A stretch of 59,889 nt of DNA, taken from Thermoplasmatales archaeon SM1-50. Its GTDB lineage: Archaea > Thermoplasmatota > E2 > DHVEG-1. The stretch lies in assembly GCA_001595945.1 (NCBI GenBank), contig LSSI01000015.1:1-59889 (forward strand). The letters are read 5' to 3'. The notes beneath the pieces were generated by a model that saw only the letters and a program-made list of their open reading frames with translations, was not told the DNA's origin and made no database searches. Shown one piece after another: positions 11,323-45,755 of the stretch. Every line of letters starts with the position of its first letter. The first letter of the stretch is position 1. The position numbers and the translations under genes were made by a program.

Positions 11323-13266
11323 TTAATAACCCAGTAGTTGTCGTAGGAATGGGAATGCATTGGGAAACCGCTCGAATAACACTTTTAAGAACTGTAGTGT
11401 TGGGCGGTTAAAGGAATATGGCATGGTTACCGTAAGAGTACCCCAATCACTTTCATCACCATTACTGTCTTTTGCTTTTACTCTAATTATGTAATCTCCT
11501 TTTGTAGACCAAGTATGGGATTTGATTATTATACAACCTGAATTATAGGGGCCGATCCAATCACTGTCTGTCCCATCACCCCACTCAATGAAATAGCTTA
11601 CTTCGTCACCATTAGGGTCTATTGCCGTGAAATTATACTGAATGGCAACCTTTATTTTACCCTGCGCTGGACCTGTGATGGTTGGTGTATCAGGTGGCAG
11701 ATTCTCGACACTTATTCCTTTAAGAACAAGGGATGGTTCTCCAAAAAGATTGAATGTATACATGTCTAAATATTCAGCATAGTGATCCCAACCGTAAAAA
11801 AGATTACAGAAATATTTCGCATTATAGAGGGCTTCACCAACTGTCTTTGAATCATTGATCAGAAACCGATTGAATTCAAAAAGAATGGAATCAGAACCAC
11901 CAGGGTTGTTTGGCCAATCAAAGGTTCCATACGGTGAACGAGCTGATGCAATCACACCAATTGAAGCACCCATGGAAGGATCCGTAAGTAAATCTATACC
12001 AAGATTTCCAGTTGGCGATGCCTCTGGACATCCTACATAACAGGATTCTGCAGTGACAATAGACGGATAATCATCATCAAGATTTGAATTAATATTAATG
12101 AAATCAATAAAAGATATCTCTGATGCTTCTGGAACGTTATCACCATCATCCCATTCCCAAACCTTTCGAGCAGCTCTGTTTGTCCACCCATGACCTTGCC
12201 AATTCACCACAGAATATTGACCATTCAGCCAATCGCTAGTTAACGCTGTTTCACTTAAAGGTGGCCAAGGATAGACCGATGTTTCTAATCCTTGTTGTTC
12301 ACTATAATGGCTATTTGACCAGTTCGTCATAGTATCATTTTCAATATAGTAGGAAAGCGTTGCACCATCCATTGCAGGGTTTCCACTGTTGCCTTCGTTA
12401 GTAAAATAAAAAAACGACCCCGCATTCAACGCATTTGTTTTCCATTCAGTGCTATCTTGTTCAAATGAAGTAATTTTATCAAGAGTATATGTTATTCGGG
12501 TGGAGATACTTGTTGGAATTCTTCCTATGTAGACTTCTGGGAAAAAATCTGGTGAATCTTGTCCGTATTCTCCGTAATATCCATCACCATCAAGATCCCA
12601 GGAATCTGCATCACCACTCGATAAATCTGCGTAGTAATAATCGGTTGGCACTTCTCCACTTGTCCAATCGAAAATATCAAATCTATGATTCGTTGGGTCT
12701 GGGTAACAATACCTCATTGGTATAGTTGCATGATCTCCAATGAGTAATACATATTCTATTCCTAACTCTTGGTAAGATACTCTGAGGAAGTTTCTAATTT
12801 TTTCAGGTAAGTCCTGACCGTTTTGAGAGGCAATCTCAGTATCTGTTATATTAAAGATTTTAACAGTATGACCTAGAAGCGTTTTCCATCCAATGAATGC
12901 GGAGGAAGTAATTGCATTATACAAGCTCTCTACAGTAATGATAACGTAATTGTATGTCTCAATATTATTTTGCTTTTGATTTAATGTCCATTGTTTTTCT
13001 ATCTCTCTATTATCCGTAATATTTTTTGAATTTTGTCTGTAAGAGATTAAATGAATTTCTGGTTCTTCGTTCGTGTGTTCTCCATTCTTGTTTATCATTT
13101 GATAATCAGGCGAACATGGTTGAGAAATCGGTGCAATAAATATTTCCGAATCATTTGATAAATCTGGAAATTCAGTATCAAGTTTAAATTTTTTTTCAGT
13201 TGCCATACACTGTAATCCACTAATGAGAAATACGCCGACAATCAGAAATGGAATTATTTTTTTCAT
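11323..13266 (-). CDS. Gingipain-like cysteine peptidase (C25) + PKD + FPNAFP tail
   Basis: YVIIT, YVLLIGD, PTDYYYADL, VYIGRIP, catalytic WQGHG and AESC. PKD signature YFIEWGDG...HTWSTKGDY. C-terminus FERFPNAFPFLRQLLGY. Confidence 0.9.
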   Translation of the reverse strand: MKKIIPFLIVGVFLISGLQCMATEKKFKLDTEFPDLSNDSEIFIAPISQPCSPDYQMINKNGEHTNEEPEIHLISYRQNSKNITDNREIEKQWTLNQKQNNIETYNYVIITVESLYNAITSSAFIGWKTLLGHTVKIFNITDTEIASQNGQDLPEKIRNFLRVSYQELGIEYVLLIGDHATIPMRYCYPDPTNHRFDIFDWTSGEVPTDYYYADLSSGDADSWDLDGDGYYGEYGQDSPDFFPEVYIGRIPTSISTRITYTLDKITSFEQDSTEWKTNALNAGSFFYFTNEGNSGNPAMDGATLSYYIENDTMTNWSNSHYSEQQGLETSVYPWPPLSETALTSDWLNGQYSVVNWQGHGWTNRAARKVWEWDDGDNVPEASEISFIDFININSNLDDDYPSIVTAESCYVGCPEASPTGNLGIDLLTDPSMGASIGVIASARSPYGTFDWPNNPGGSDSILFEFNRFLINDSKTVGEALYNAKYFCNLFYGWDHYAEYLDMYTFNLFGEPSLVLKGISVENLPPDTPTITGPAQGKIKVAIQYNFTAIDPNGDEVSYFIEWGDGTDSDWIGPYNSGCIIIKSHTWSTKGDYIIRVKAKDSNGDESDWGTLTVTMPYSFNRPTLQFLKVLFERFPNAFPFLRQLLGY

Positions 13267-13338
13267 TTTTTTGCTCCATTAGCTCCATTATATAGTTTTC
13301 ATAACATTGTTCTCCCTTAAAAATATATCCTTAGATGA

Positions 13339-13449
13339 TTAAAGAATAATATCTTTTCATTCCGACTTTTAGACATGCAACTTCTTGAACAGTTCTTTGA
13401 GCAATTCCCCCATGCATTTTCAATCCTACGACACCTAATCAGATATTAA
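13339..13449 (+). pseudogene. Orphan FPNAFP-type C-terminal tail (or 24-aa micropeptide from ATG 13375)
   Basis: Translates LKNNIFSFRLLDMQLLEQFFEQFPHAFSILRHLIRY*, followed by a T-rich tract. No upstream gene body. Confidence 0.7.
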
Positions 13450-13579
13450 ATACCTTGTCTTTTTTTCTTTTTCAGTTTGATTTCATCTAAAAAATTAGTT
13501 CTATTATGTAATCGAAACTCGTATCGCTGTGTTGATGAAAATAAAAATTTTCTTGTCACTTTTCTTAAAAATATAAACC

Positions 13580-13651
13580 GATGATAAATTATAAATACCA
13601 TGATTGAATTTTAATTTATTGAACCCGTTTTTTAGAGGGAGGAAGAAAACC
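13580..13651 (+). promoter_or_regulatory. Promoter/leader cassette shared with 25162-25232
   Basis: 35-bp identity GATGATAAATTATAAATACCATGATTGAATTTTAA containing a TATA box, then a similar leader and GGGAGGAAGAAAA RBS. Confidence 0.75.
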
Positions 13652-15400
13652 TTGAAAAATGGAATAATGCAGAGGAATATTATCGTAGTAACAATAGTTC
13701 TGTTATTTGGGGTTAGTGTCACACCATCCATAACAGGTGCTTTTACCGAAGAGAAATCTAATCTTTACGTATCATATGGTGTTATTTTATATGTCGGTGG
13801 GAGTGGGCCAAACAACTATACTAAAATACAGGATGCAATCAATGACACCAATAATGGAGATAGTGTCTATGTGTATCAAGGAACCTACTATGAATATATT
13901 ATAATTAATAGGAGCATTAATCTTATTGGGGAAGATAAAAATATTACGATTATTGATAGCAACGCAAAACATGATACGATATATATTGGGTTCCCCGCGG
14001 ATAATGTGAATATAACAGGATTTACTATACAAAACAGCGGTAACTTCTCTTCAGGAGGAGCATATTGTGATGCTGGGATTGAAATCCATTCAGATTATAA
14101 TTCTATCCAAAATAATATAATATCAAACCATCCTCTTTATGGAATTCGACTCTGGGGTTCAAAGGGTAATAATATCTCTTATAATTCAATTTCATCATGT
14201 AATCGTTCAGGGATTAATTTTCTTGCTGGTCCAAGCAATACTATTTCTCATAACCTCATCTACGATAACGACGTTGGGATTTCTGCTCTTGGTAGTACGA
14301 ACGCCAAAGAAAACCTGCTTTCATATAACACTTTTTTTAGGAATCGGAAAGGACTGGCGATGTATGATTCAGGTAGCCGGATTTTTTGTAATAATTTCAT
14401 GGATAATATTGACTTCAATGCTATGTCTCATTTTAATTTCTGGCAAATGAAACCTTCAAGAAATATTTGGGAGAGTAATTATTGGGATGATTGGCAGGGA
14501 TTTGGTCCAAAATGGATTGGTGGATTTTTAGGATTTAATTTTGATTGGAGTCCTGTAAAAGAACCATATCCTTATCAAGATATACCTTCGTTACAATCAC
14601 AAATAACTGATAATGGAAATGTAACAAAATGGGCAGTATTAATTGCTTGTAGTGGCGGAGTAACCTATGAACGTCATGAGAGACGTGATCGTAATGATGT
14701 GAGAGTATTAAAACAAATATTAAATAAAAATGGTTGGGACGATGATCATATTCTCGTTTTAATGGAAGAGGAGGCAACAAAGGAAGCCATACTTGATGAT
14801 TCTTTTCAATGGTTACGGGATAATGGAGAAGATGAAGATGATCTCATTATTTTCTTTTTTTCTGGCCATGGATACTATCATACTGGAGATCAACCTCCAG
14901 TCGATGAACCTGATGGAAGAGATGAAATTCTACATCCTTGGGATCCCGATTTCGCTGGATGGAATCCGGATTTGTTTATAATAGATGATGTCCTAGCAGA
15001 GAAATTTGATATACTAAAATCACACAATCTAGTAATCATTATGCACACGTGTCATGCTGGAGGATGGATAGATGGTGAAAGTGATCTATCGAAGTCTGGT
15101 CGTGTGGTTTTAGTTGCCTGTGGTGTTGATGAAGCTTCATGTATGATGTTTTTCCCGATACATTGGTTGTTCCCCTATTATCTTACTCAAGGTTTAAAAG
15201 GCCGTGCAGATGATAACAATGATAAAGTTATTACAGCGGAGGAGTTACTAAGATATACGATTAAACCTGTTCAATTTCGGTCTAAGATTTATAATTGGAT
15301 ATTAACTGGCGTGGCGAATGTTCAAAACCCTGCGTTACATGATGGATGGCCAAATAACGAAAATAACACAGAAGAATTGAAATTAATAGATGTATCATAA
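13652..15400 (+). CDS. Secreted right-handed beta-helix (NosD/pectin-lyase-like) + caspase-like C14 peptidase
   Basis: LYVGGSGPNNYTKIQDAI and N-rich helix repeats, then KWAVLIA, FFFSGHG (His), HTCHAGG (Cys), DDNNDKVITAEE. TTG start after the RBS. Confidence 0.88.
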   Translation: MKNGIMQRNIIVVTIVLLFGVSVTPSITGAFTEEKSNLYVSYGVILYVGGSGPNNYTKIQDAINDTNNGDSVYVYQGTYYEYIIINRSINLIGEDKNITIIDSNAKHDTIYIGFPADNVNITGFTIQNSGNFSSGGAYCDAGIEIHSDYNSIQNNIISNHPLYGIRLWGSKGNNISYNSISSCNRSGINFLAGPSNTISHNLIYDNDVGISALGSTNAKENLLSYNTFFRNRKGLAMYDSGSRIFCNNFMDNIDFNAMSHFNFWQMKPSRNIWESNYWDDWQGFGPKWIGGFLGFNFDWSPVKEPYPYQDIPSLQSQITDNGNVTKWAVLIACSGGVTYERHERRDRNDVRVLKQILNKNGWDDDHILVLMEEEATKEAILDDSFQWLRDNGEDEDDLIIFFFSGHGYYHTGDQPPVDEPDGRDEILHPWDPDFAGWNPDLFIIDDVLAEKFDILKSHNLVIIMHTCHAGGWIDGESDLSKSGRVVLVACGVDEASCMMFFPIHWLFPYYLTQGLKGRADDNNDKVITAEELLRYTIKPVQFRSKIYNWILTGVANVQNPALHDGWPNNENNTEELKLIDVS

Positions 15401-25161: not shown

Positions 25162-25232
25162 GATGATAAATTATAAATACCATGATTGAATTTTAACTCT
25201 TGAACATGTTTTTTAGAGGGGGAAAGAAAACC
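25162..25232 (+). promoter_or_regulatory. Promoter/leader cassette shared with 13580-13651
   Basis: 35-bp identity to 13580-13614 and a similar downstream leader/RBS. Confidence 0.75.
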
Positions 25233-27044
25233 ATGAAAAAGGAAATATTACAAAGAAGTATAGCTCTTGGAATAATCATCTTACTTATCGGAGGAGGTGT
25301 GATACCATCTCTAGGAGATACCATTACGGAAAAGAACAAAATAAAACCAAGAATTAATGAAAATAACAAGTATGTCAGTTGTACCAGGAATGAACTAGAC
25401 GATGGAAGAAACGGCTGGAATCACACATTTGGAGGTAACTCCTATGATGAGGGCTATTCAGTCCAGCAAACCAATGATAATGGCTACATCATCACAGGTG
25501 CTACTTTGTCATTTGGTGCAGGAAACTGGGATGTTTGGCTGATTAAAATAGATACTACTGGAAGTGAAGAATGGAACCGGACGTTCGGAGGAAGCAATTA
25601 TGATAGAGGATCATCGGTTCAGCAGACCAATGATGGTGGATACGTCATATTAGGAGCCACATATTCCTATGGCCAAGGAGATTTTGATGTTTGGTTAATT
25701 AAAACAGATTCAGTGGGAAACGAGGAATGGAACTTTACATTTGGTGGTAGTAGTAGTGATTGGGGCTGTTCAGTCCAACAGACAAAAGATTACGGCTATA
25801 TACTCACAGGATACACGGACTCATATGGTGCAGGAAATTCAGATGTTTGGTTAATAAAAACAGATTCTGCGGGAAATGAAATCTGGAACTCTACATTTGG
25901 AGGAATCCAGTATGATAGAGGTTTTTCAGTTCAACAAACGACTGACAGCGGCTATATACTCACGGGATACACAGTCTCATATGATGCAGATGGAACCGGT
26001 TGTGATATTTGGTTGATTAAAACAGATGTAAATGGAATTGAAGAATGGCATCAGACATTTGGAGGAACCGGCATTTCTAATAAGTTTGATATGGCTTATT
26101 CAGTCCAGCAGACTAATGACGGTGGTTATATTATCATAGGTGATACAGAGATATATTTTGTAGCTGAATCAGATATTTGGCTAATTAAAACTGATGCCAA
26201 TGGAAATGAGGAATGGAACCGTATTTTCGGAGGTGTTACTGCTGATAGAGGACGTTCAGTTCAGCAAACCAATGACATGGGATACATAATTACAGGATGG
26301 ACAACATACCATAGAGGAGCAGACCCCGATCTTTGGTTAATTAAAACAAACTCCAGTGGAAACGAGGAATGGCAATATACTTATCGATATGGAGAAAACA
26401 GTAGTGATTGGGGGTATTCGGTGCAGCAAACCAATGACGCCGGTTATATAATTGTCGGAGCGACTATGCCTGATGGCTGGAACAACACTGATTCCTCACA
26501 ATCATATCGGCAAGAAGGCACCGATGTTTGGTTAATCAAAACCGCAAGTGAAAATCATCCGCCCATCAAACCAATTATTAACGGTCCTGCTTTCGGACGA
26601 GTGGGGGTACGTTACAACTTCACTATAGTGACAACAGACCCAGATGGAAATGAATGTTATTATCTCCTTGATTGGGGTGATGAAACGCAGAGCAGTTGGC
26701 TTGGTCCCTATCAATCAGGAGTACCCATACAAATCTCACATACATGGAATGAACCAGGAACCTATCTAATAAAAGGAAAAACGAAGGATATAAATGGAGC
26801 AGAAAGTGATTGGTCATCTGAATTTTTAATTACAATCGTCCAACTGAAAACAGCATTCTTCCTTGGAACCTTTACGAACATCAGCCAAACAGATGATCTC
26901 ATGATAATGTATATGCGATTCTTTATTGTGTTTCCATCTGATTCGATTTTTCATCAAGGAGGAATGATAGTTATCTGGAAGGAGTATCTTGGGTATATTG
27001 GACAAGCCTTTTGCCTTGGACGGGGAAATGTTGTAGTTCTCTAA
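25233..27044 (+). CDS. Secreted 7-repeat beta-propeller-like protein + PKD + 'AFxxG' C-terminal module
   Basis: Seven W..TFGG..D.G.SVQQT.DGGYII.G...DVWLIKTD repeats, YLLDWGDE PKD and AFFLGTFTN tail. Confidence 0.88.
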   Translation: MKKEILQRSIALGIIILLIGGGVIPSLGDTITEKNKIKPRINENNKYVSCTRNELDDGRNGWNHTFGGNSYDEGYSVQQTNDNGYIITGATLSFGAGNWDVWLIKIDTTGSEEWNRTFGGSNYDRGSSVQQTNDGGYVILGATYSYGQGDFDVWLIKTDSVGNEEWNFTFGGSSSDWGCSVQQTKDYGYILTGYTDSYGAGNSDVWLIKTDSAGNEIWNSTFGGIQYDRGFSVQQTTDSGYILTGYTVSYDADGTGCDIWLIKTDVNGIEEWHQTFGGTGISNKFDMAYSVQQTNDGGYIIIGDTEIYFVAESDIWLIKTDANGNEEWNRIFGGVTADRGRSVQQTNDMGYIITGWTTYHRGADPDLWLIKTNSSGNEEWQYTYRYGENSSDWGYSVQQTNDAGYIIVGATMPDGWNNTDSSQSYRQEGTDVWLIKTASENHPPIKPIINGPAFGRVGVRYNFTIVTTDPDGNECYYLLDWGDETQSSWLGPYQSGVPIQISHTWNEPGTYLIKGKTKDINGAESDWSSEFLITIVQLKTAFFLGTFTNISQTDDLMIMYMRFFIVFPSDSIFHQGGMIVIWKEYLGYIGQAFCLGRGNVVVL

Positions 27045-27178: not shown

Positions 27179-28573
27179 TCAAATAACATTCCGGATACAT
27201 CCGGGATCAGACGCTAAATAATCTCCAGTATATCCATAGGCACGTGCACGGCATCCACCACAATAATATCGATACGTACATTGACCACAATTTCCCCGTA
27301 ATATATCCTTATTTCTCAAATTTTTCAGAACTATATTATTTCTCCAGAGATTTTCAAAATCATCTTCTTTAATGTTTCCAACTTTCAATGGAAAAAAAAC
27401 ACAAGGTTCAATATCTCCATTTGGACGGATGGCACAATATACTCTCCCGCACCCACATCCCCCGATAAACTCAGCGAGATTCACCAGTTTGCCGGTAAGG
27501 GAGGGATTTGCAAAATGAGTCGGAACAATTTTTTCATTTTCTCCAATTTCTGATTCTAACGCTACTCTTGCAAACTGCGGTGCCGTGGAAAGCACGTTTA
27601 TTTTTTTATCATCTTTTAACCGCCTCCATAAATCTTTGAGTACCTGCTCTCTTTCCATGGGGCTTAAATCATTTTCTACGATGAATATCCCCCGGCCGGT
27701 TGGGACAAAATTATACGCCATAAACCAATTCACCCCAAGATTTTTACAGAGATCAATAATCTTAAGAATCTCCATATAATTATATTTTGTAATCGTAGTT
27801 GCAATATTTACAAAAAATCCTTCTTCGATACAGATTTTAATACCTTGTATCGTCTTTTCAAATGCTCCATTAACCCCTCTAAAATCATTATGAGTCTCTG
27901 CTGATGCACCGTCAAGGCTGATTTGAACAAAACGAATACCTGCTTGTTTCATCTCCTGGGCTTTTTCTTTTGAAATCAAGGTCCCATTTGTTGCGATGGC
28001 GACATATATTCCTTTCTCAAGCGCATACTTAGCCAATTCAAAAATATCACTACGTACTAACGGCTCCCCACCAGAAAACGCGATTATAGGTACTGAGGCA
28101 TGATCAAGTTTATCGATAACAGTGAGAGCTTGCTCAGTTGTTAGCTCATCATCAAGAGATTTACCCGCATTCGCATAACAATGTCTGCATTTAAGATTAC
28201 ATTGATAGGTGATATCCCATACAACAAGGAAAGGCGCACCAGTAATAAATGGATGTTGTACACCAAACTGTGCTATACCAGTCAAAACATTTGCAAGACC
28301 CTTTCTCCAAGATGAATGACGGAATTGCTCTTTGAGCATCGTCGGTGTTATACCAAAAATATTTCCTCCTGTATTCAAAATCCTTTTCAATATTTTCTCA
28401 GCGAGTTTACATTTCATGCAAGCATCTTTCCGTAACCCGACATATAACTCTAAGGCCACTTCAACACAATTTTTACGACAAGTTTTACAAAAACCAAAAT
28501 GAGATAAAATAGTTCGAGTAAACGGATTACCTATCGTTAACCGCAAGAGTTGTATGGTTGTAACGAGCTCCAA
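27179..28573 (-). CDS. Radical SAM/SPASM-domain protein (NirJ/AhbC-D-like architecture) with N-terminal Cys-containing extension
   Basis: CNLKCRHC, SGGEPL, GCGCGR...PCVF, CGQC...CGGCRARA. Confidence 0.9.
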   Translation of the reverse strand: MELVTTIQLLRLTIGNPFTRTILSHFGFCKTCRKNCVEVALELYVGLRKDACMKCKLAEKILKRILNTGGNIFGITPTMLKEQFRHSSWRKGLANVLTGIAQFGVQHPFITGAPFLVVWDITYQCNLKCRHCYANAGKSLDDELTTEQALTVIDKLDHASVPIIAFSGGEPLVRSDIFELAKYALEKGIYVAIATNGTLISKEKAQEMKQAGIRFVQISLDGASAETHNDFRGVNGAFEKTIQGIKICIEEGFFVNIATTITKYNYMEILKIIDLCKNLGVNWFMAYNFVPTGRGIFIVENDLSPMEREQVLKDLWRRLKDDKKINVLSTAPQFARVALESEIGENEKIVPTHFANPSLTGKLVNLAEFIGGCGCGRVYCAIRPNGDIEPCVFFPLKVGNIKEDDFENLWRNNIVLKNLRNKDILRGNCGQCTYRYYCGGCRARAYGYTGDYLASDPGCIRNVI

Positions 28574-29308: not shown

Positions 29309-29962
29309 ATGAATATACTAGTAAAGATTGGAAGTTTGTTTGTTATAGCACTTATAATATTAGTTACTTTTACCTCAGTTGTTGGATATCAGTCAGTACA
29401 GCCCAATGGAAAAAATCTATCTTCACCATTGTTTAATATCAGAACGCAACGTGCGATTGACAAAGTAAGCGAAAGGAGTATAACATCCGAATATCTTGGA
29501 AAAGGTAAAACTCTCTATCTTTTCACGTCATTGAAATCAGGATTTTCTTCACAGCTTGACAAAGCAATTAAATTTATAAACGATAATCCAGGAATCATTC
29601 AGAAACTCCTTGAGAGAATCTCAAAATCTCCGCAAATGATGCGTCTTTTCCAGCAGCATGGGTTAAGCATTACTCTGGTAAAACATACACTCGCTCAAAT
29701 TTCAGAGAATCCAGAGTTGCTAAAAAATCAATTGAATGAATTGAAGTATCCTGTTGATATTACTAATGATTCACAACCTCTTGGCTTGGATACTTCTAGC
29801 GTATTAGGTTGTTTTGTAACAGTCCTTATCCTTTTACCTCTTGCAATATTGATTGGTGTGCTTGTTGCTACAATTCTTGTCATAACCTGTTTCAACATTG
29901 GAAATTGTTTTGAAACCATTGTTCAAGCGATTTTAAATGGAATGCTACAAGGTTTAGATTAA
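29309..29962 (+). CDS. Secreted/membrane hypothetical protein with C-terminal hydrophobic helix
   Basis: Signal peptide ...TSVVGYQ, SSPLFNIRTQRAI and a C-terminal TM segment. Confidence 0.8.
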   Translation: MNILVKIGSLFVIALIILVTFTSVVGYQSVQPNGKNLSSPLFNIRTQRAIDKVSERSITSEYLGKGKTLYLFTSLKSGFSSQLDKAIKFINDNPGIIQKLLERISKSPQMMRLFQQHGLSITLVKHTLAQISENPELLKNQLNELKYPVDITNDSQPLGLDTSSVLGCFVTVLILLPLAILIGVLVATILVITCFNIGNCFETIVQAILNGMLQGLD

Positions 29963-30440: not shown

Positions 30441-32033
30441 TTAGTATTGTAAGAGATGCTGTAGTAGGGGGAATGCATGAGGGAATCTCTCAAGTAATCT
30501 CATCAAAAATTGAATGTATGGAATGTTGTATGAGCATGGCATTGTCACTGAAAATGTTGTCCAGTCACCTTCCGCACCTAGCCCATCTTTCGCTTTCGCT
30601 CTAATTACATAAGTTCCTTTTTCAAACCATGTATGCCCCACTACGACTTCTTCCCCAGAACTATATGAACCGATCCATCCGCTGTTTATGTCGTCTCCCC
30701 AATCTATCCAGTAATAGACATCGTCTCCCTCCAGGTCAATAGTATTAAATGTGAAATGGTATTCTATTCCTGGTTTTCCCTTGGAATCACCATTGATTGT
30801 TGGTTTATTAGGTGGAGTATTTGTTCCTTGTAATTTTATTAATAACACATCAACAGCAGCAAGGTTGTATTTACCAGTTTCACCTGTTATTATATATCCC
30901 CCATCATTTGTTTGGATTCCATACGACCCTGAGTCTGTTTCTCCATTATGATCAATAATGTAGCTCCATTCTTCATTTCCATTTTCATCAGTTTTAATCA
31001 TGTATAACTCAAGATCCTCATGAACCGGATCTGTATAATCACCGGTTATGAAATACCCATCATCTGCAGTTTGTACAATACTTTTTCCTTGATCCCAATT
31101 ACTTCCCCCAAATGTTGAATTCCATAGTTCATTTCCATTAGAATCAGTTTTTATCAACCAGACATCATCATTTCCCATACTAAATGAACTGGTTCCTCCT
31201 GTAATGATGTATCCACCATCCAAGGTTTGTTGAACATATTTACCAGTATCTAAATACATACCACCAAATGATTTATTCCATAATTCGTTTCCATTCGCAT
31301 CTGTTTTAATCAACCAGATATCTCCATTGCCACCAGAATCAAAAGAATGGGTCGATCCAGCAATAATATATCCCCCATCAGAAGTTTGTTGGACACAATC
31401 CCCGCCGTCAAGCCCATTTCCTCCAAAGGTTTGAATCCATTCGTCCACTCCAACTGCATTCAACTTGATAAGCCATACATCACTACTGCCAGCACCATAT
31501 GAACCTGTCCATCCTGTTAGAATATACCCTTCATCAGTTGTTTGTTGAACAGATAAACTATCATCATAATAATTAAAGAGACCAAGTGTGCGTGTCCAGG
31601 TAAAGGCACCACTGGAATCTGTTTTTAAAATATAGGCATCGAAATGATAGTTATAACCTGTAAATCCTGCAATAATATATCCTCCATCAGAAGATGGTTG
31701 TATATATTGACCGACATTTTCATAGGGTATGATTCCATACTGTTGCTGCCATTCTATATTCCCCATAGCATCAATTTTCAATAAATAGATATACCCCTGA
31801 CAAGGCGTGTAAACATACCTATCACAAGCTCCCGATAAGATGTATCCTCCATCAGAAGTTTGCTGCACGCACCGCCCCCAATCAACTAGCTCTCGCCCAT
31901 ATGTTTTTTCCCACTCAATAGGTGGTTGTAACGTGAAATTTCCAGGTTTTTGTGTATCAATACTTGATACAGGAATAACAGTAGCTGCAATTAAAATTGT
32001 ATATATCAATATTCCAAATATTTTCTTTTTCAA
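30441..32033 (-). CDS. Secreted 7-repeat beta-propeller-like protein + PKD + FPNAFP tail
   Basis: Seven QQTxDGGY repeats, YWIDWGDD PKD and LERFPHAFPLLQHLLQY. Probable TTG start at 32033. Confidence 0.88.
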   Translation of the reverse strand: MKKKIFGILIYTILIAATVIPVSSIDTQKPGNFTLQPPIEWEKTYGRELVDWGRCVQQTSDGGYILSGACDRYVYTPCQGYIYLLKIDAMGNIEWQQQYGIIPYENVGQYIQPSSDGGYIIAGFTGYNYHFDAYILKTDSSGAFTWTRTLGLFNYYDDSLSVQQTTDEGYILTGWTGSYGAGSSDVWLIKLNAVGVDEWIQTFGGNGLDGGDCVQQTSDGGYIIAGSTHSFDSGGNGDIWLIKTDANGNELWNKSFGGMYLDTGKYVQQTLDGGYIITGGTSSFSMGNDDVWLIKTDSNGNELWNSTFGGSNWDQGKSIVQTADDGYFITGDYTDPVHEDLELYMIKTDENGNEEWSYIIDHNGETDSGSYGIQTNDGGYIITGETGKYNLAAVDVLLIKLQGTNTPPNKPTINGDSKGKPGIEYHFTFNTIDLEGDDVYYWIDWGDDINSGWIGSYSSGEEVVVGHTWFEKGTYVIRAKAKDGLGAEGDWTTFSVTMPCSYNIPYIQFLMRLLERFPHAFPLLQHLLQY

Positions 32034-32215
32034 AGGATTTCCACCCATACTTGTCTATTTATTGATAACTATATTAGATTTTATCTTACATAATTGTACA
32101 AATTTTTAATTTAACTCTCAATAATTTATAAATGCACAATATTTATTTTTTCCAAACATTTAAATGAAATAAAATCATAATAATTTCTAATCTGATTTTC
32201 AGGAGGAGGAAGAAA

Positions 32216-35793: not shown

Positions 35794-36303
35794 ATGACTA
35801 AGAAAAATTACTCTTGGAAAGAAATCATCCCATCAACTATAGTAACTCTGCTCTTTATATCGCAAATCATAATAGGCATATATTTACTATCAGAAATTTC
35901 ACAAAATAAATTTTTAGCGTATACCGGTGTCGGACTTTACATTTTTTCAGGATTGATTTTTGGCATGCTCCCCGTCTTTGAATTTCGTAAAAAAGGAAGT
36001 GTAAAAAAGGGAAAAAGTTATATCCATACAACAAAACTTGTTGATACCGGTATTTATGCCATAGTTCGTCATCCTCAATATATTACCTGGATGTGGTGGG
36101 CTATTGCTGGAATGTTTCTTTTTCAACATTGGATTGTCATTTGTTTGGGGATTCCTATTATTCCTCTTACCTATATTGATCTATTAAATGCAGATAAAAA
36201 TGGACTTCAAAAATTTGGGGAAGAGTATAAAAGATATATGGAAAAGGTCCCAAGAGCGAATTTTCTTCTTGGAATCATCCGATTACTTCAACATAGGATG
36301 TGA
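35794..36303 (+). CDS. Isoprenylcysteine carboxyl methyltransferase / PEMT-family membrane methyltransferase
   Basis: LVDTGIYAIVRHPQY and FGEEYKRYMEKVPR. Confidence 0.88.
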   Translation: MTKKNYSWKEIIPSTIVTLLFISQIIIGIYLLSEISQNKFLAYTGVGLYIFSGLIFGMLPVFEFRKKGSVKKGKSYIHTTKLVDTGIYAIVRHPQYITWMWWAIAGMFLFQHWIVICLGIPIIPLTYIDLLNADKNGLQKFGEEYKRYMEKVPRANFLLGIIRLLQHRM

Positions 36304-36309
36304 AATGAA

Positions 36310-36981
36310 ATGTCAAGTTTGTATGAATATAGAATTGAAAAAGATCACATCCGTGAGCATTTAAACAAATACACAAAGAAAGCATTTTCACTACTTCCAA
36401 AATATCAAACCCCTATTATCTTAGATATCGGATGCGGAACTGGAGTTGCAACAGTTGAATTAGCAAAACTCTCAAAGGGACACATTACCGGAATAGATAT
36501 TGACGAAACATCATTAAATATACTTCAACGAAAAATAAAGGAAAAAGGATTAGAAAATCAGATAAGTATTATCAAAGATTCAATCCTAACATTGGATTTT
36601 CCGGAAGAAAGCTTTGACATCATCTGGGCAGAAGGATCACTCTTTGTCCTTGGTTACGAAAATAGTCTAAAAAAATGGCGTCGTTTTTTAAAACCAAATG
36701 GATTTTTAGTAACTCACGATGAAAACAGAGACATCTCTAAAAAACTTGAGGTTATATCAAAATATGGGTTTACATATATAAGTCATTTTCTGATCTTAGA
36801 TCGTCTCTGGTGGATTGAATATTATATTCCTTTAGAACGCCTTATTCAAGAGTTTCAGTCGAAGTATCCGAACGACCCCGAGCTAAGAAATGAGCTACAA
36901 AGAGATCTGATAGAAATCGATAACTGTAAATCAAAGACTGTTGTGTGTAGTTCATTTTTTGCCGTACTTCAAAAAATCTAG
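36310..36981 (+). CDS. Class I SAM-dependent methyltransferase
   Basis: ILDIGCGTG, ITGIDI, FDIIWAEGS, LKPNG. Confidence 0.9.
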   Translation: MSSLYEYRIEKDHIREHLNKYTKKAFSLLPKYQTPIILDIGCGTGVATVELAKLSKGHITGIDIDETSLNILQRKIKEKGLENQISIIKDSILTLDFPEESFDIIWAEGSLFVLGYENSLKKWRRFLKPNGFLVTHDENRDISKKLEVISKYGFTYISHFLILDRLWWIEYYIPLERLIQEFQSKYPNDPELRNELQRDLIEIDNCKSKTVVCSSFFAVLQKI

Positions 36982-41686: not shown

Positions 41687-41811
41687 ACGCTCAATCGAAG
41701 ATTAAAATTCTATTTAACTTTTTTTTCACCTGGTTAATCGTAATATTTGTATCTACCTGTATAAAAAAATAATGGAATCCTACACTATAAAAAAGTGATT
41801 GAAGAGATGGA

Positions 41812-41870
41812 TGAGCTGGGTAAAAAAAGCTTTCTATAAAGGGGTGGAAAGCAAATGGTACCCCAGCTCA
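41812..41870. ncRNA. Candidate structured RNA / attenuator (hairpin 1)
   Basis: Outer stem TGAGCTGGG/CCCAGCTCA (9 bp), inner stem GCTTTCTA/TGGAAAGC, TATAAAAA at 41786-41793. Confidence 0.4.
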
Positions 41871-42019
41871 GCATATACTGGATATACCATCGGATTTAAA
41901 AGACTTTTTATAAATATAACCCCAAAAATCAAGCAGACACATCACCACAATTTTATATTACGTCTAATGATACCGATTTATCTCTATACGTAAATAATCA
42001 AAATAAAAAAAAGAATTTA

Positions 42020-42452: not shown

Positions 42453-42676
42453 GGTATATTCAGATATAGGACAAACAAACTTATGATTTAATAATTACGA
42501 TAAATAATGGTGACAAACAAAGGTATTATGCAAAAAAATCATACAAATGAAGCAAACTATCTCATGTTTTTTCTTTTTTTAAAAACAAACCTTCACAAAA
42601 CAAGTTAATAAAGCGATGAAATATCTTTTTTCTTTTACTACAAAAGTTTATTTATGAAGTAGTAATTCGTAAGAAT

Positions 42677-42744
42677 GGCTCCGGGGAGGTACAACTAGTT
42701 AAATAACACTAACCTGTTCGTTATTTCTTCCACTTCTCGGAGCC
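42677..42744 (+). ncRNA. Candidate small RNA (hairpin 2)
   Basis: 12-bp stem GGCTCCGGGGAG/CTTCTCGGAGCC with two G-U pairs on +. Inner stem AAATAAC/GTTATTT. BRE-TATA at 42641-42654 (-30..-23). Confidence 0.5.
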
Positions 42745-42811
42745 TACTATAAAAACAGAGACAAAACACTAGGCAAATCTATATAAACATGTTTTTTATT
42801 CAGGAAAATCA

Positions 42812-42866
42812 GCTCCGGAGATCAATGTTTTTTTATTTAATTTTCTTTCCTCCCTTGCTTCGGAGC
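42812..42866 (+). ncRNA. Candidate small RNA (hairpin 3)
   Basis: 9-bp stem GCTCCGGAG/CTTCGGAGC with one G-U pair on +. Pyrimidine-rich loop. TATATAAA at 42780-42787. Confidence 0.45.
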
Positions 42867-43237
42867 CTCACATTTCCTTCAGACACGCTGCTCGTCCTTA
42901 AACACACTCCTTATCCACAATAAAAAAGACAGGAATCTATTGATACGATTGGAAAATCATGTGATAATGATTTTATATTACAGAGATACCTATATTTTCA
43001 TTTGATTTCACATAAAAAAAATATTAAGTCATCGTGGCTTTGTAAACCATGTATACTATCCCTTGATTTTCAAGAGAATGTGTTTAGCAAACGGAAATCA
43101 ATGATTACCCCAAGGAAAATTCGGCCATCGTAATTTTTATAACCTTTGTTACAATCGTATATTAAGCATAAATTATAAATACCGGTAGGGTATTTTATAT
43201 TTTATAGGACCCTGTTTTCAGGGGAGGAAGATAGAAA

Positions 43238-44326
43238 ATGAAGAAGAAAATAATTAGTATAGTAGTTTGTACGCTAATGATAGGAACAACAAGCCTCGTC
43301 GTCGCTGACTGGGCGCCAGGTGATGGACATAAAATGCATTTCCCGCAACTTCCAGATCCAACCGGCTGGGATGTAAACTTCCACGATTATTTTCTTGGAG
43401 ATGATTGGCAATGTACCCAAACAGGACCAGTCACCGATATTCACTTCTGGATATCCTGGCGCCAAGATGTAATGGAAGACCTTCCATTTGTTCATGTCTT
43501 CATATATTCAAATAACCCGCAAGGACCTGGGTATTCACAACCAGACGTTCTATTATGGGAACAAATGTTTACCTTTGATCAATTCATCATTGCAGGTCCA
43601 TGGACAGGTGATCAAGGCTGGCTTGAACCATATGGTGAATACTTTTTACATGATCACATACACTATTATCAAATTAATATAAAAAACATTTCTAATCCAT
43701 TTATACAACAAAATGGAACTATCTACTGGTTGGTTATTCAGATGCCATTCCTCTACCCAATTGAAATGGGTTGGAAAACAACATTGGATCATTTCATGGA
43801 TGCAGCAGTATGGGGTGCCCCGGGGTCATGGTATCCCATCGAGGATCCATTATTAGGAACACAAATCGACTTTGCTTTTGTAATAACTAATTTTATACCA
43901 CCACCACCAGAACCTGATCTCAGTTGCAGGGGATCACTAACTTGGGATGAAGTACAACCTAGTTCTACTGTTACCGGGACATTCGAAGTTGGGAATGTAG
44001 GAGAAATCGGTTCACTACTTAATTGGACGGTGGACAGCTGGCCGCCTTGGGGGACCTGGTCGTTTACGCCAAAAAATGGTACGGCTCTTCCCAAAGGAAG
44101 CTGGGTGAACATAACAGCCACAGTGGTTGCACCTTCCGAGAAACCAAAAGAATTCAACGGGAAAATAAAAGTAATTAATACAGATGACACAACTGACTTC
44201 TGCGAAATAGATGTTACTCTTAAGACTCCAAAGTCCTTTGATATCCAGTTCCTACTTTTCTTCGGGAGACTCTTCAACCGATTTCCCAATGCGTTTCCGA
44301 TACTCCGATATCTAATGGGATACTAA
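43238..44326 (+). CDS. Secreted protein (DDWxC...DIHFW domain) + Ig-like domain + FPNAFP tail
   Basis: Signal peptide, GDDWQCTQTGPVTDIHFWISW, PPPPEPDLSC linker, LFNRFPNAFPILRYLMGY. Confidence 0.85.
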   Translation: MKKKIISIVVCTLMIGTTSLVVADWAPGDGHKMHFPQLPDPTGWDVNFHDYFLGDDWQCTQTGPVTDIHFWISWRQDVMEDLPFVHVFIYSNNPQGPGYSQPDVLLWEQMFTFDQFIIAGPWTGDQGWLEPYGEYFLHDHIHYYQINIKNISNPFIQQNGTIYWLVIQMPFLYPIEMGWKTTLDHFMDAAVWGAPGSWYPIEDPLLGTQIDFAFVITNFIPPPPEPDLSCRGSLTWDEVQPSSTVTGTFEVGNVGEIGSLLNWTVDSWPPWGTWSFTPKNGTALPKGSWVNITATVVAPSEKPKEFNGKIKVINTDDTTDFCEIDVTLKTPKSFDIQFLLFFGRLFNRFPNAFPILRYLMGY

Positions 44327-44454
44327 AAAAATCTCTCTCTTCTTTTTTTAATCATGTTACGATGGCCACAAAAAAAAAACCATAAGTGCCTCTAAAGAGT
44401 GATTTTTTAAAGAAAGAAATGATCTACATTCGTAAACCGTAGGAGAGAGATCTA

Positions 44455-44700
44455 ATGGTAACACTAAAAATAAAAGTCGGACATTACTATGCATATGCAT
44501 ACAAAGATAAACATACAATCGCATTTGCTGTACTATATGGTTTTGAACGAGGAAAAAACAAGGATGTCTATACACTACGCCTGTATACGAGCAACGGGGA
44601 TTTTGAATTTCCTATTAAAGAATCCACATTTGATCGATGGGTAAAAGAAGGACGTATTACAGAATTAACACCTGAGGAAGCACTAGACTATGCATTGTAA
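44455..44700 (+). CDS. Small hypothetical protein
   Basis: 81-aa ORF with an AGGAG RBS and plausible composition. Confidence 0.7.
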   Translation: MVTLKIKVGHYYAYAYKDKHTIAFAVLYGFERGKNKDVYTLRLYTSNGDFEFPIKESTFDRWVKEGRITELTPEEALDYAL

Positions 44701-44758
44701 ATAACTATTTTGCTTTTTAAAGAATGACATAGTATTTGATAGTGTAACGATCTACCAA

Positions 44759-44953
44759 TCATTTCATATCAGTATAGGTTACCGAATGTTGCTTCCCTGC
44801 CGTCCCCCAATTATTTAACTGAGTCTCATGAATAAGTATCGTTACTGCCTGAGCAGGGATCCCCCATTTCGTAAATACTTCGGTAATTTTCTCCATTAAT
44901 TCAGGTTTTTTTTCTTGTGGCATCGGCCATGTCTCAATAGTTACTATTGGCAT
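44759..44953 (-). CDS. 4-oxalocrotonate tautomerase family protein
   Basis: Catalytic Pro-1 (MPIVTIE), KKPELMEKITEV, VTILIHE...NWGTAG. Confidence 0.9.
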   Translation of the reverse strand: MPIVTIETWPMPQEKKPELMEKITEVFTKWGIPAQAVTILIHETQLNNWGTAGKQHSVTYTDMK

Positions 44954-45092
44954 TTATTTATCACCAAGCAAAACATGATTTCAAACATGTTTATATATTC
45001 ACCTTTTCCCATAACTCTATAGAGAACTTCTTTACATCGTAACAGAAAATTATATATAGTTACATAACATGTATTTAAAACTGGGGATAATA

Positions 45093-45755
45093 ATGAAGAA
45101 AAAAATAATTGGATATATGGTCATAACGCTTTTAATCACCGCAGCAACATTACCTGCATTAGCACATATCACACCAACAGAACCAACTACACCGAAAAAC
45201 AACAGTGTTATGTTTTCTCTATTGTTTCATTTGTTTGAACGCTTTCCAAACGCGTTTCCATACTTGAAATATTTTCTTATCATCAATGGGTTTTTAAACG
45301 CGTTTGTTAAAGAAGGAACAGGATCGCTAGTTCTCAAGTTGACAGACGCACCCCCTGAGCTTAATATTACAGAAGCATTGGTCACGATTTCTCAGGTGAC
45401 TGTTCACTATGCAGGAACAAACGACACCAATGGCTCATGGATCACTATCGTCAATGAGACACAAACCTTTGACCTGATCCAATTACAAAACGCAACAGAG
45501 GTTCTCGGAGGACAAACGTTAGCTGCGGGATGGTATACCCAGATCAGATTGTCCGTCGACAGTGCACTAGTAACCATCGATGGGACCCAATATAATCTGA
45601 AAATCCCTTCAAAGAAAGTAAAACTCATTACACCATTTTTGGTGCTGGATAATCAGACGCTAACTTTAATCTTAGACTTTGATGTGCAAAAATCAGTACA
45701 CAAAACAGGAAGCGGTACTTATATCATGAACCCAACCATCAAGGTCATCCAGTAA
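45093..45755 (+). CDS. DUF4382-domain secreted protein with N-terminal FPNAFP motif
   Basis: LKLTDAP...VTISQVTVH, FDLIQL, GWYTQIRL, LILDFDVQKS. FERFPNAFPYLKY follows the signal peptide. Confidence 0.85.
   Translation: MKKKIIGYMVITLLITAATLPALAHITPTEPTTPKNNSVMFSLLFHLFERFPNAFPYLKYFLIINGFLNAFVKEGTGSLVLKLTDAPPELNITEALVTISQVTVHYAGTNDTNGSWITIVNETQTFDLIQLQNATEVLGGQTLAAGWYTQIRLSVDSALVTIDGTQYNLKIPSKKVKLITPFLVLDNQTLTLILDFDVQKSVHKTGSGTYIMNPTIKVIQ

What the first reader, a model, noticed from the sequence alone, without database searches (positions are those of the whole stretch)
11323..45755. Recurrent 'FERFPNAFPxLRxLL' amphipathic tail: candidate undescribed archaeal sorting/anchoring signal
Seen: three unrelated secreted proteins end with this motif after an Ig/PKD domain: C25 peptidase (LFERFPNAFPFLRQLLGY), propeller 30441 (LLERFPHAFPLLQHLLQY) and 43238 (LFNRFPNAFPILRYLMGY). 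A fourth copy sits N-terminally in 45093 and a fifth is orphaned at 13339. Knowledge: known archaeal C-terminal signals (PGF-CTERM, PEF-CTERM) have motif + TM helix + basic tail and use archaeosortases. This motif instead looks like a kinked amphipathic helix-Pro-helix with no TM segment or basic tail. Inference: a lineage-specific membrane-docking or processing signal that tethers exoenzymes. I do not recall a named family for it.
Basis: partly seen in the sequence, partly recalled or inferred. Interest (0 to 1): 0.75.

Follow-up and report, generated by a model that had tools for sequence, protein, structure and literature searches.

The report
Unnamed surface-anchor tail on archaeal secreted proteins
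A very conserved 33-residue helix-turn-helix tail (core ...LFERFPNAFPILRxLLGY) ends hundreds of unrelated secreted proteins of uncultured sediment archaea (Thermoprofundales/MBG-D-like Thermoplasmatota); it matches no named family and most likely holds exported enzymes at the cell surface without crossing the membrane.

Summary
Three unrelated signal-peptide proteins in the window end in ...[LF][FL]ERFP[NH]AFPxL[RQ]xL[LM]xY-stop. A fourth carries the motif just after its signal peptide, and a degenerate 24-codon orphan lies at 13375-13449.

A 33-position profile of the tail finds 811 protein clusters in 1.84 billion representatives. In the best 150 it is almost always at the exact C-terminus. 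Every taxonomically named carrier is a Thermoplasmatota MAG or SAG, including published Thermoprofundales (MBG-D) genomes, with several copies per genome. Passenger domains are diverse extracellular types, and 86-91% of carriers have signal-peptide-like N-termini. Conservation acts on the peptide, not the DNA.

The tail is not a transmembrane helix and has no basic end. AlphaFold2 predicts two amphipathic helices joined by a PNAFP turn. Pfam, NCBIfam, PDB and the paper library have no match.

The key mechanistic clue comes from DUF4382 proteins. In at least 63 of 120 homologue clusters the motif sits where 50 paralogous clusters have a lipoprotein lipobox cysteine. This points to a non-spanning anchoring or docking module, not a cleaved sortase-type signal.

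No partner protein was identified, and membrane binding and retention in the mature protein are untested. I rate it a new variant of a known kind, of moderately high interest.

The parts
11326..11424 (-). 33-aa C-terminal tail of the C25 peptidase+PKD protein (gene 11323-13266): MPYSFNRPTLQFLKVLFERFPNAFPFLRQLLGY
   Evidence: The Pfam PKD match ends at residue 613-614 of 647, leaving the tail unassigned. AlphaFold2 predicts helix-turn-helix.
11323..13266 (-). Carrier 1: signal peptide - Peptidase_C25 - PKD - tail (647 aa)
30444..30542 (-). 33-aa C-terminal tail of the beta-propeller+PKD protein: MPCSYNIPYIQFLMRLLERFPHAFPLLQHLLQY
30441..32048 (-). Carrier 2: signal peptide - SBBP-like propeller - PKD - tail (535 aa)
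44225..44323 (+). 33-aa C-terminal tail of the DUF7901 protein: TPKSFDIQFLLFFGRLFNRFPNAFPILRYLMGY
43238..44326 (+). Carrier 3: signal peptide - DUF7901 - Ig-like domain - tail (362 aa)
45207..45284 (+). N-proximal copy of the motif (VMFSLLFHLFERFPNAFPYLKYFLII) between the signal peptide/linker and the DUF4382 domain
   Evidence: It is conserved in at least 63 of 120 homologue clusters. AlphaFold2 predicts helix 39-50, turn, helix 56-64, pLDDT 82-85.
45093..45755 (+). Carrier 4: signal peptide - linker - motif - DUF4382 (220 aa from the start at 45093)
13375..13449 (+). Orphan 24-codon ORF MQLLEQFFEQFPHAFSILRHLIRY*. It has substitutions at three near-invariant positions (R1Q, P7S, G14R) and stop codons just upstream, so it is most likely a decayed relic.
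   Evidence: position frequencies
51247..51774 (-). Comparator: DUF4382 paralogue with a lipobox signal peptide (..IFSGC) and no motif, 46% identical to 45093-45755. In the alignment the Cys falls where the motif segment ends.
25200..27044 (+). Comparator: paralogue (45% identity) of the propeller+PKD carrier. It ends in an unrelated 65-aa extension instead of the tail.

Best explanation
The tail is a self-contained module of about 33 residues. It has a short conserved linker ((T)MPxS[YF]NxP or MP[KV]N[KQ]..), then amphipathic helix 1 ([FL][LWF][EQ][WRK]L[FL]ERF), a rigid turn (P-[NH]-A-F-P), and amphipathic helix 2 ([IL]LRxL[LM]G[YL]-COOH).

Carriers are exported by the Sec route through an ordinary N-terminal signal peptide. 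After export, the hairpin keeps the passenger (peptidases, beta-helix, propeller and Ig-domain proteins) at the cell surface. It would do this by lying in, or dipping into, the outer face of the membrane without spanning it. A conserved but unidentified surface partner may assist.

Shown here: the module exists, is terminal, is under strong peptide-level selection, is restricted to secreted proteins of Thermoprofundales-like Thermoplasmatota, is not a TM helix, and replaces a lipobox anchor in one protein family.

Inferred: that its role is anchoring or docking, and that the hairpin does not span the membrane.
For: (1) Scale and position. The profile finds 811 clusters at E<=1e-3 and 82 at E<=1e-10 among 1.84e9 representatives. 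In the best 150 the match ends at the C-terminus almost without exception. In 79 genome loci, RFPxAF is followed by exactly 9 residues and a stop in most of 90 hits.

(2) Secreted, modular passengers. Among 86 long carriers, 69 have PKD, 13 NosD/beta-helix and 7 fn3, with propellers, LamG and FG-GAP also present. In the genome loci, 69/76 stop-bounded ORFs have signal-peptide-like N-termini. Signal-peptide-like starts are enriched against neighbouring ORFs, p=3e-15.

(3) Not a TM helix. No 19-residue window reaches a Kyte-Doolittle mean of 1.6; the maximum is 1.36 and the mean of the per-tail maxima is 0.56.

(4) Both helices are cleanly amphipathic. Positions -6, -2, -1, +2 and +8, +9, +12, +13 are 98-100% aliphatic or Phe and fall within a 140-160 degree arc. 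Glu sits at the centre of the polar face. Arg, Trp and Tyr sit at its edges. The helix-1 hydrophobic moment is 0.56, against 0.34+-0.16 when shuffled.

(5) AlphaFold2 gives helix-turn-helix in both contexts.

(6) The PKD domain folds without the tail. PDB 4xed is a PKD domain from an MBG-D single-cell genome, 55% identical to the window's. Its construct stops at ...VTMP, exactly where the tail starts.

(7) Natural swap. Of the 120 listed DUF4382 homologue clusters, at least 63 have signal peptide-linker-motif directly before '(K/E)EGTG'. Another 50 have a lipobox (..LSGC) directly before '(V/I)QEGTG'. Both versions occur in this window. A TM reading of the N-proximal copy would put the domain on the opposite side of the membrane from its lipoprotein paralogue.

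(8) Bacterial-type DUF7901 homologues carry an FlgD_ig / Por_Secre_tail-like C-terminal domain where the archaeal ones carry the tail.
Against: - No experiment or simulation of membrane binding was possible.
- The near-invariance of E0, R1, F2, P3, A5, F6, P7, L9, R10 and G14 is stronger than generic lipid-binding helices usually show. That hints at a specific protein partner or enzyme, which I could not find. No conserved non-carrier gene lies within +-4 kb in 79 loci.
- The exact spacing to the free C-terminus could mean that the terminus itself is recognised.
- Tail pLDDT is only 68-79 in the C-terminal context.
- The signal peptide of the N-proximal variant might stay uncleaved, which would weaken the topology argument.
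- The hairpin could instead mediate oligomerisation.
Confidence: 0.55

Rival explanations
1. It is a true sorting signal. A dedicated, still unknown enzyme recognises ERFPNAFP..LR..G[YL]-COOH, cleaves the tail and attaches the passenger covalently to a lipid or envelope polymer. This would be analogous to archaeosortase/PGF-CTERM or PorU/T9SS.
For: - Sequence conservation is very high, the distance to the C-terminus is fixed and there are many copies per genome. This is the signature of known sorting signals.
- C25 peptidases, the family that includes the T9SS sortase PorU, lie within 4 kb of tail genes in 7 of 79 loci. One carrier in the window is itself a C25 peptidase, with a weak PorU2-model match at E=2.5e-4.
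- DUF7901 homologues elsewhere use a T9SS-type CTD.
Against: - There is no TM helix or basic end to hold a substrate for a membrane transpeptidase.
- The motif is conserved N-proximally in at least 63 DUF4382 clusters. Cleavage there would detach the passenger from nothing useful.
- No conserved neighbouring enzyme was found.
- C25 peptidases are abundant, highly expressed extracellular peptidases in Thermoprofundales anyway (PMC6461988), so adjacency may be chance.
- Canonical and strongly divergent tails coexist in one genome.
Confidence: 0.15
2. It is a docking or oligomerisation peptide. The hairpin binds a specific surface receptor (an S-layer or membrane protein), or pairs with other hairpins, and so assembles exoenzymes into surface complexes in a cohesin-dockerin-like way.
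For: - Residue-specific conservation is strong.
- The motif works at either end of a protein.
- Two amphipathic helices could form a four-helix bundle on dimerising.
- A family of about 200-aa membrane proteins ('VVGYQSV...SPLFxxRTQRA' plus a C-terminal TM) lies next to tail genes in 4 loci, twice directly downstream on the same strand.
Against: - The candidate receptor is adjacent in only 4 of 80 loci, and the association could not be tested further.
- The lipobox swap points to the membrane itself as the target.
- Divergent tails that have lost ERFPNAFP persist in orthologues.
Confidence: 0.2
3. It is not a functional peptide signal at all. It is a DNA-level repeat (mobile element end, terminator, recombination site) that happens to be translated, or simply the last structural element of the PKD domain.
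For: - An orphan copy lies in an intergenic region.
- The tail usually follows one particular PKD subtype.
Against: - Differences between copies fall at synonymous sites: 5.05 at third positions against 0 at second positions per pair.
- The stop codon position is fixed.
- The tail also follows non-PKD domains: the DUF7901 Ig-like domain, a propeller directly in P0027, and it precedes DUF4382.
- The PKD crystal structure 4xed is complete without it.
Confidence: 0.02

Closest known systems
Archaeosortase substrates (PGF-CTERM / PEF-CTERM / VPXXXP-CTERM; Haft et al. 2012, reviewed in PMC6098224)
   Same: Both are C-terminal, lineage-restricted and multi-copy per genome. Both sit on Sec-exported surface proteins with diverse passengers, often after Ig-like or PKD domains. 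The presumed purpose, retention at the archaeal surface, is the same.
   Different: Those signals are tripartite: signature motif, then a TM helix, then a basic cluster. They are cleaved by a polytopic transpeptidase. This tail has no TM-grade stretch, no basic end and no PGF/PEF motif. It matches none of the NCBIfam models, and it also functions N-proximally.
C-terminal amphipathic-helix anchors of exported enzymes, e.g. E. coli PBP5/PBP6 (from my own knowledge); in-plane amphipathic anchor of pestivirus Erns (PMC4536213)
   Same: These are the best analogy for how it works. A Sec-exported, otherwise soluble enzyme is held on the outer face of the membrane by a terminal amphipathic helix, or helix-bend-helix, that does not span the bilayer.
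   Different: There is no sequence relationship. Those anchors are single-protein features with loosely conserved sequence. This one is a shuffled, near-invariant module shared by hundreds of protein families in one archaeal lineage.
Archaeal/bacterial lipobox lipoproteins (PMC6098224; PMC12462473)
   Same: In DUF4382 proteins the motif occupies the same position as the lipobox Cys of the paralogues. The presumed outcome, a domain held tight against the membrane, is the same.
   Different: No cysteine and no lipid modification are implied. The module is usually C-terminal.
Type IX secretion C-terminal domain (Por_Secre_tail, PF18962) with the PorU sortase (C25 family)
   Same: It is a C-terminal module on the same kinds of passengers (C25 peptidases, PKD, DUF7901). 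DUF7901 homologues carry a CTD-like domain in the equivalent position.
   Different: The T9SS CTD is a beta-sandwich of about 75-100 residues and needs an outer membrane. This tail is 33 residues, helical and archaeal, and gives no HMM match.

Membership tests
PGF-CTERM / other archaeosortase sorting signals | Signature motif (PGF, PEF, VPXXXP...) at the start of the tail | tested here: not met
   The logo of 206 tails shows ERFP[NH]AFP and no PGF/PEF signature.
PGF-CTERM / other archaeosortase sorting signals | Hydrophobic transmembrane helix after the motif | tested here: not met
   The maximum 19-residue Kyte-Doolittle mean is 1.36 and none reaches 1.6 in 206 tails. AlphaFold2 gives two short helices of 13 and 7 residues.
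PGF-CTERM / other archaeosortase sorting signals | Cluster of basic residues at the extreme C-terminus | tested here: not met
   The tails end ..L[LM]G[YL]-COOH. The mean net charge of the last 25 residues is +1.1, from R1 and R10 inside the helices.
PGF-CTERM / other archaeosortase sorting signals | Match to the curated HMMs (NCBIfam/TIGRFAM) | tested here: not met
   No NCBIfam or Pfam hit to the tails even at E<=10. Full-length proteins match only passenger domains.
PGF-CTERM / other archaeosortase sorting signals | Cognate archaeosortase encoded in the same genome | not testable with these tools
   Whole genomes could not be fetched. None is encoded in the 60-kb window.
T9SS C-terminal sorting domain (Por_Secre_tail) | Beta-sandwich CTD of about 75-100 residues matching PF18962/TIGR04183 | tested here: not met
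   The tail is 33 residues and predicted helical, with no HMM match.
Lipobox lipoproteins | [LVI][ASTVI][GAS]C at the end of the signal peptide | tested here: not met
   The motif-bearing DUF4382 proteins lack the lipobox. Their paralogues have it.
PKD domain (PF00801/PF18911): is the tail part of it? | Tail residues covered by the domain model or structure | tested here: not met
   The Pfam PKD match ends 33 residues before the C-terminus. The PDB 4xed construct ends at ..VTMP.
Amphipathic in-plane / monotopic membrane anchors (functional class, not a sequence family) | Amphipathic helix or helices without a spanning segment on an exported protein | tested here: met
   Helical-wheel segregation, hydrophobic moment, AlphaFold2 helices and signal peptides.
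Amphipathic in-plane / monotopic membrane anchors (functional class, not a sequence family) | Demonstrated binding to membranes or lipids | not testable with these tools
   This needs liposome flotation or cell fractionation. The only indirect support is the lipobox swap.

The most novel reading that the evidence does not exclude
The tail is the address label of a wholly new archaeal surface-sorting system. A dedicated receptor or enzyme, unrelated to sortases, exo-/archaeosortases, rhombosortases or T9SS, reads the near-invariant ERFPNAFPxLR hairpin at either end of a protein and installs dozens of exoenzymes per cell on the envelope of Thermoprofundales, among the most abundant archaea in marine sediments.
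Probability: 0.25. Interest if true: 0.8.

Novelty: new variant of a known kind. Interest (0 to 1): 0.62.

Why it matters
Thermoprofundales (MBG-D) are cosmopolitan, uncultured sediment archaea. They are thought to degrade detrital protein with extracellular peptidases, and C25 peptidases are among their most expressed genes (PMC6461988).

Whether these enzymes are released or stay on the cell decides who benefits from the hydrolysis products. A recognisable tail would let one predict the cell-attached exoproteome directly from metagenomes.

It would also add a non-tripartite, apparently non-spanning type to the known archaeal surface-anchoring mechanisms. The review read here lists signal-anchor/TM, lipobox and archaeosortase routes and never mentions amphipathic anchors.

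In practice, the 33-residue profile can be turned into a family model that annotates more than 800 currently unnamed protein C-termini. The conserved tryptic peptide FP[NH]AFP[IL]LR offers a direct metaproteomic read-out.

Tried and rejected
- Pfam and NCBIfam scans of full proteins and of isolated tails at E<=10 gave only passenger domains.
- A PDB sequence search with the tail profile gave only chance-level hits, E>=0.09.
- Foldseek of the PKD+tail model matched only PKD/Ig folds.
- A literature search for 'RFPNAFP' found 0 papers, and 'Thermoplasmatota + C-terminal + archaeosortase' also found 0.
- tRNA and Rfam scans of the window found nothing relevant.
- Search for a partner gene: all-against-all clustering of 623 ORFs from 79 loci plus the window found no conserved non-carrier family next to tail genes. 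It found only other secreted proteins, tail-less C25 peptidases (7 loci), transposases (5 loci) and a small membrane-protein family (4 loci).
- The first tail-profile search in the word-indexed database returned only short fragments. It was replaced by the exhaustive representative search.
- The TM-helix reading was rejected on hydropathy.
- The DNA-repeat reading was rejected on codon-position statistics.
- The 'part of PKD' reading was rejected by 4xed and by carriers without PKD.
- A T1SS-like C-terminal secretion signal was rejected because carriers have N-terminal signal peptides.
- The hypothesis that tail 'dialects' are genome-specific, which would imply a co-evolving partner, was rejected. 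SG8-52-2 and SG8-52-3 each carry both canonical and divergent tails.


Full report

Yes. A six-frame scan finds the core [RK]FPx[A..]F four times in long ORFs. Direct translation gives the three C-terminal tails:
- C25 peptidase+PKD, 11323-13266(-): MPYSFNRPTLQFLKVLFERFPNAFPFLRQLLGY*
- Propeller+PKD, 30441-32048(-): MPCSYNIPYIQFLMRLLERFPHAFPLLQHLLQY*
- DUF7901, 43238-44326(+): TPKSFDIQFLLFFGRLFNRFPNAFPILRYLMGY*

There is also an N-proximal copy in the DUF4382 protein 45093-45755(+) at 45207-45284.

The core pattern occurs 5 times in the window and never in 200 shuffles. The four passengers are unrelated by Pfam (Peptidase_C25+PKD; PKD with an SBBP-like propeller; DUF7901; DUF4382). In each case the Pfam matches stop before the tail. 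All four proteins start with a K-rich, hydrophobic signal-peptide-like segment.

**2. Peptide or DNA element?**

It is a peptide. The five DNA copies differ mainly at third codon positions. Among 65 copies of ERFP[NH]AFP[ILV]LR from the window and related genomes, pairs differ on average by 5.05 bases at third positions, 0.0 at second positions and 1.56 at first positions. All synonymous Pro, Arg, Glu, Phe and Ala codons are in use. The orphan carries substitutions at three near-invariant positions (R1Q, P7S, G14R; frequencies) and has stops just upstream. It looks like a decaying relic.

**3. How widespread is it, and where?**

- A word-indexed search with the tail alignment returned 25 short fragments. 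All carry ...VTMP-x(8-14)-L[FL]ERFPNAFPILRxLLG[YL]; two of them are named, both Thermoplasmatota/Thermoplasmata MAG proteins.
- An exhaustive hmmsearch of a 33-position profile (alignment A4) against 1.84 billion representative proteins found 811 clusters at E<=1e-3 and 82 at E<=1e-10. In the best 150 the match ends at the last residue of the protein almost without exception.
- A pattern scan of one genome per GTDB species (185,579 species) found 218 pattern hits, 172 of them confirmed. The best 80 all lie in Thermoplasmatota/Thermoplasmatales MAGs. They come from 28 genomes, with up to 11 listed loci per genome.
- Within those loci, RFPxAF is followed by exactly nine residues and a stop in most of 90 occurrences.
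- Named carriers include Thermoplasmatales archaeon SCGC AB-540-F20, SG8-52-2/-3/-4 and MAG 3300003432D. Of these, SCGC AB-540-F20, SG8-52-3, SG8-52-4 and 3300003432D are listed among the Thermoprofundales (MBG-D) genomes in PMC6461988.
- The window itself matches contigs of JGI metagenome 3300027901 and ENA ERZ27275860.
- Source databases name these proteins only by their passenger domain, for example 'PKD domain protein' or 'NosD domain-containing protein'.

**4. What carries it?**

Of 86 carriers of at least 300 aa:
- 69 have PKD domains
- 13 have NosD/beta-helix
- 7 have fn3
- others have propellers, Laminin_G_3, FG-GAP, pectinesterase and similar domains

These are typical extracellular architectures. 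In the genome loci, 69 of 76 stop-bounded carrier ORFs have a signal-peptide-like start. Several of the remaining ORFs show hydrophobic, signal-peptide-like segments near their 5' end that may follow non-ATG starts; others are fragments or contain masked sequence. Counting only first-Met starts, 69/80 carriers have such an N-terminus against 96/260 neighbouring ORFs, Fisher p=3e-15.

The tail usually follows one PKD subtype, but not always. It follows a different Ig-like domain in DUF7901 proteins and a propeller directly in P0027, and it precedes DUF4382.

The PKD domain does not need the tail. PDB 4xed is the PKD of an M14-like peptidase of the MBG-D single-cell genome AB-540-F20. It is 55% identical to the window's PKD and superposes on the model at 0.6 A. 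Its construct ends at ...LEVTMP, exactly where the tail begins.

**5. Anatomy**

From 206 distinct tails, the parts are:
- a linker, (T)MPxS[YF]NxP or MP[KV]N[KQ].. The two linker forms correlate with a terminal Y or L respectively.
- helix 1, [FL][LWF][EQ][WRK]L[FL]ERF
- a turn, P[NH]AFP
- helix 2, [IL]LRxL[LM]G[YL]-COOH

F2, P3, F6, P7, R1, L9, R10 and A5 are each 95-100% conserved.

No 19-residue window reaches the usual TM threshold. The Kyte-Doolittle maximum is 1.36 and the mean of the per-tail maxima is 0.56. There is no basic cluster at the end.

On a helical wheel both helices are sharply amphipathic. Positions that are 98-100% aliphatic or Phe fill a 140-160 degree arc. Glu lies in the middle of the polar face. 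Arg, Trp and Tyr lie at the polar/apolar boundaries. The helix-1 hydrophobic moment is 0.56, against 0.34+-0.16 for shuffles.

AlphaFold2 with a 45-sequence alignment predicts the PKD domain at pLDDT about 97, followed by helix 113-125, the PNAFP turn and helix 131-137 at pLDDT 68-79. For the DUF4382 protein it predicts the signal-peptide helix, a disordered linker, helix 39-50, the turn, helix 56-64 (pLDDT 82-85) and then the beta-sandwich. I could not inspect coordinates, so I cannot say whether the hairpin packs on the neighbouring domain.

**6. The most informative result: a natural anchor swap**

I classified the 120 best homologue clusters of the DUF4382 protein.
- At least 63 have signal peptide - variable linker - PKNxP..FN[LF]..[LF]FERFPNAFP[IL]LKY.L[IV]..G[FL]..FV - (K/E)EGTG....
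- 50 have a lipoprotein-type signal peptide ending ..L(S/T)GC, directly followed by (V/I)QEGTG....

Both versions occur in this window: 45093-45755 with the motif, and 51247-51774 with ..IFSGC. They are 46% identical. BLASTP aligns the end of the motif segment (..GFLNAFVKEGTG) with the lipobox (..IFSGCMKNETG).

So in a conserved protein family the motif occupies the position of a covalent lipid anchor, immediately before the same extracytoplasmic domain. This argues for an anchoring role.

It also argues against a membrane-spanning topology. A TM helix after a cleaved signal peptide would put the domain on the cytoplasmic side, opposite to its lipoprotein paralogue.

It further argues against a sortase-type cleave-and-attach signal, which only makes sense at a C-terminus.

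A weaker parallel comes from DUF7901 homologues of bacterial type. These end in an FlgD_ig domain (35.6 bits, above cut-off) that overlaps a sub-threshold Por_Secre_tail match (22 bits) where the archaeal proteins have the tail.

**7. What argues for something more specific than lipid binding?**

The residue-level invariance of the core and the fixed distance to the free C-terminus are stronger than expected for a generic amphipathic anchor. They resemble true sorting signals.

Against a strictly partner-read code, DUF7901 orthologues show a continuum of divergent tails:
- FLRFLENHPHLFPILRHLLGL
- LLQRFFSQFPVLHWILNPK
- ILERIFQRFRILQFLFY

These keep the linker, the amphipathic pattern and usually the second Pro, but lose ERFPNAFP. 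Canonical and divergent tails coexist in the same genomes, SG8-52-2 and SG8-52-3.

I found no conserved non-carrier gene within +-4 kb of tail genes. The recurring neighbours were:
- tail-less C25 peptidases, in 7 loci
- transposases, in 5 loci
- a membrane-protein family of about 200 aa, in 4 loci and twice directly downstream on the same strand

These are leads only. The window also encodes an M50 peptidase, an ICMT-methyltransferase pair and radical-SAM proteins. Nothing links them to the tail.

**8. Comparison with known systems**

The review of archaeal surface biogenesis (PMC6098224) describes signal-peptide/TM anchoring, lipobox lipoproteins and archaeosortase-dependent anchoring of tripartite signals (motif, hydrophobic domain, charged end; ArtA-ArtE). 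The word 'amphipathic' does not occur in it.

The tail fails every tested defining feature of the archaeosortase signals: motif, TM helix, basic end and HMM match. It also fails those of the T9SS CTD and of lipobox proteins (see the membership table).

In mechanism it is closest to the C-terminal amphipathic anchors of exported enzymes such as E. coli PBP5/6 (my own knowledge) and to in-plane viral anchors such as pestivirus Erns (PMC4536213). There is no sequence relationship to either. The difference is that this is a shuffled, near-invariant module shared by hundreds of protein families.

**9. Verdict**

The feature is real, large, lineage-restricted and absent from every library I could search.

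My estimates for the readings are:
- 0.55: a non-spanning amphipathic helix-turn-helix module that keeps Sec-exported proteins at the cell surface
- 0.20: docking to a specific partner, or oligomerisation
- 0.15: a cleaved sorting signal
- 0.02: an artefact

I rate it a new variant of a known kind (terminal surface-anchoring/sorting signals), interest 0.62. The decisive tests are phylogenetic profiling on whole genomes, detection of tail peptides in metaproteomes, and liposome or fractionation assays.

Noticed in passing
window 29309-29962 (+); L014:4148-4753; L059:4210-4821; L020:2-505: A family of about 200-aa proteins with a signal peptide, 'VVGYQSV', 'SPLFxxRTQRA', a helical ectodomain and a C-terminal TM segment. 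It lies beside tail-bearing genes in 4 of 80 loci and directly downstream on the same strand in two genomes. It has no meaningful Pfam match. It is a possible receptor candidate, but the evidence is thin.
   Followed up: partly
window 9065-9493 (-): A small secreted or membrane protein that also has '..LGYQIV' right after its signal peptide. The GYQ(S/I)V motif after the signal peptide may be a second lineage-specific signal.
   Followed up: no
P0295-P0364 (homologues of window 43238-44326): DUF7901 orthologues carry a graded series of divergent C-terminal tails that keep the amphipathic helix-Pro-helix pattern but lose ERFPNAFP. Another subgroup ends ..ACGxVSMEKxIxLFIxLFKVIP.
   Followed up: partly
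P0397, P0404: DUF7901 homologues of 568-570 aa end in an FlgD_ig / Por_Secre_tail-like (T9SS-type) C-terminal domain. The same passenger therefore uses a different terminal sorting module elsewhere.
   Followed up: partly
PDB 4xed vs window 11425-11700 (-) region (PKD of the C25 protein): A solved PKD domain from the MBG-D single-cell genome SCGC AB-540-F20 is 55% identical to the window's. Its construct was cut exactly at ..VTMP, leaving the tail off.
   Followed up: yes
P0027 (693 aa): A propeller protein with a tail (…LFQRFPNAFPILRQLVKY) reads through into fn3+PKD plus a second tail. This is an apparent fusion of two tail-bearing genes.
   Followed up: partly
window 25200-27044 (+): A paralogue (45% identity over 512 aa) of the propeller+PKD carrier. 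After its PKD domain it has an unrelated, partly hydrophobic 65-aa C-terminal extension instead of the tail.
   Followed up: partly
window 11323-13449: The C25 gene is bracketed by inverted tail-coding sequences: its own tail at 11326-11424(-) and the orphan at 13375-13449(+). This may be a trace of an old rearrangement between tail sequences. The two copies are not close in DNA sequence.
   Followed up: no
L004, L009, L012, L019, L029, L053, L057: C25 peptidase genes without PKD or tail (several ending ..LLGDPSL.IGGY*) lie within 4 kb of tail-bearing genes in 7 loci.
   Followed up: partly
L024, L033, L038, L040, L047: The same transposase-like ORF family (about 514-523 aa, some copies split or masked) lies next to tail-bearing genes in 5 loci.
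   Followed up: no
window 13604-15400 (+): A secreted protein that combines a NosD/beta-helix region with a caspase-like Peptidase_C14 domain. The orphan tail lies in its upstream region.
   Followed up: no
window 35794-36981 (+); 27179-28573 (-); 8166-8846 (+): An ICMT-family methyltransferase next to a class I methyltransferase, a radical SAM/SPASM protein, and a small M50 (site-2-protease-like) peptidase. None recurs near tail genes in other loci.
   Followed up: partly
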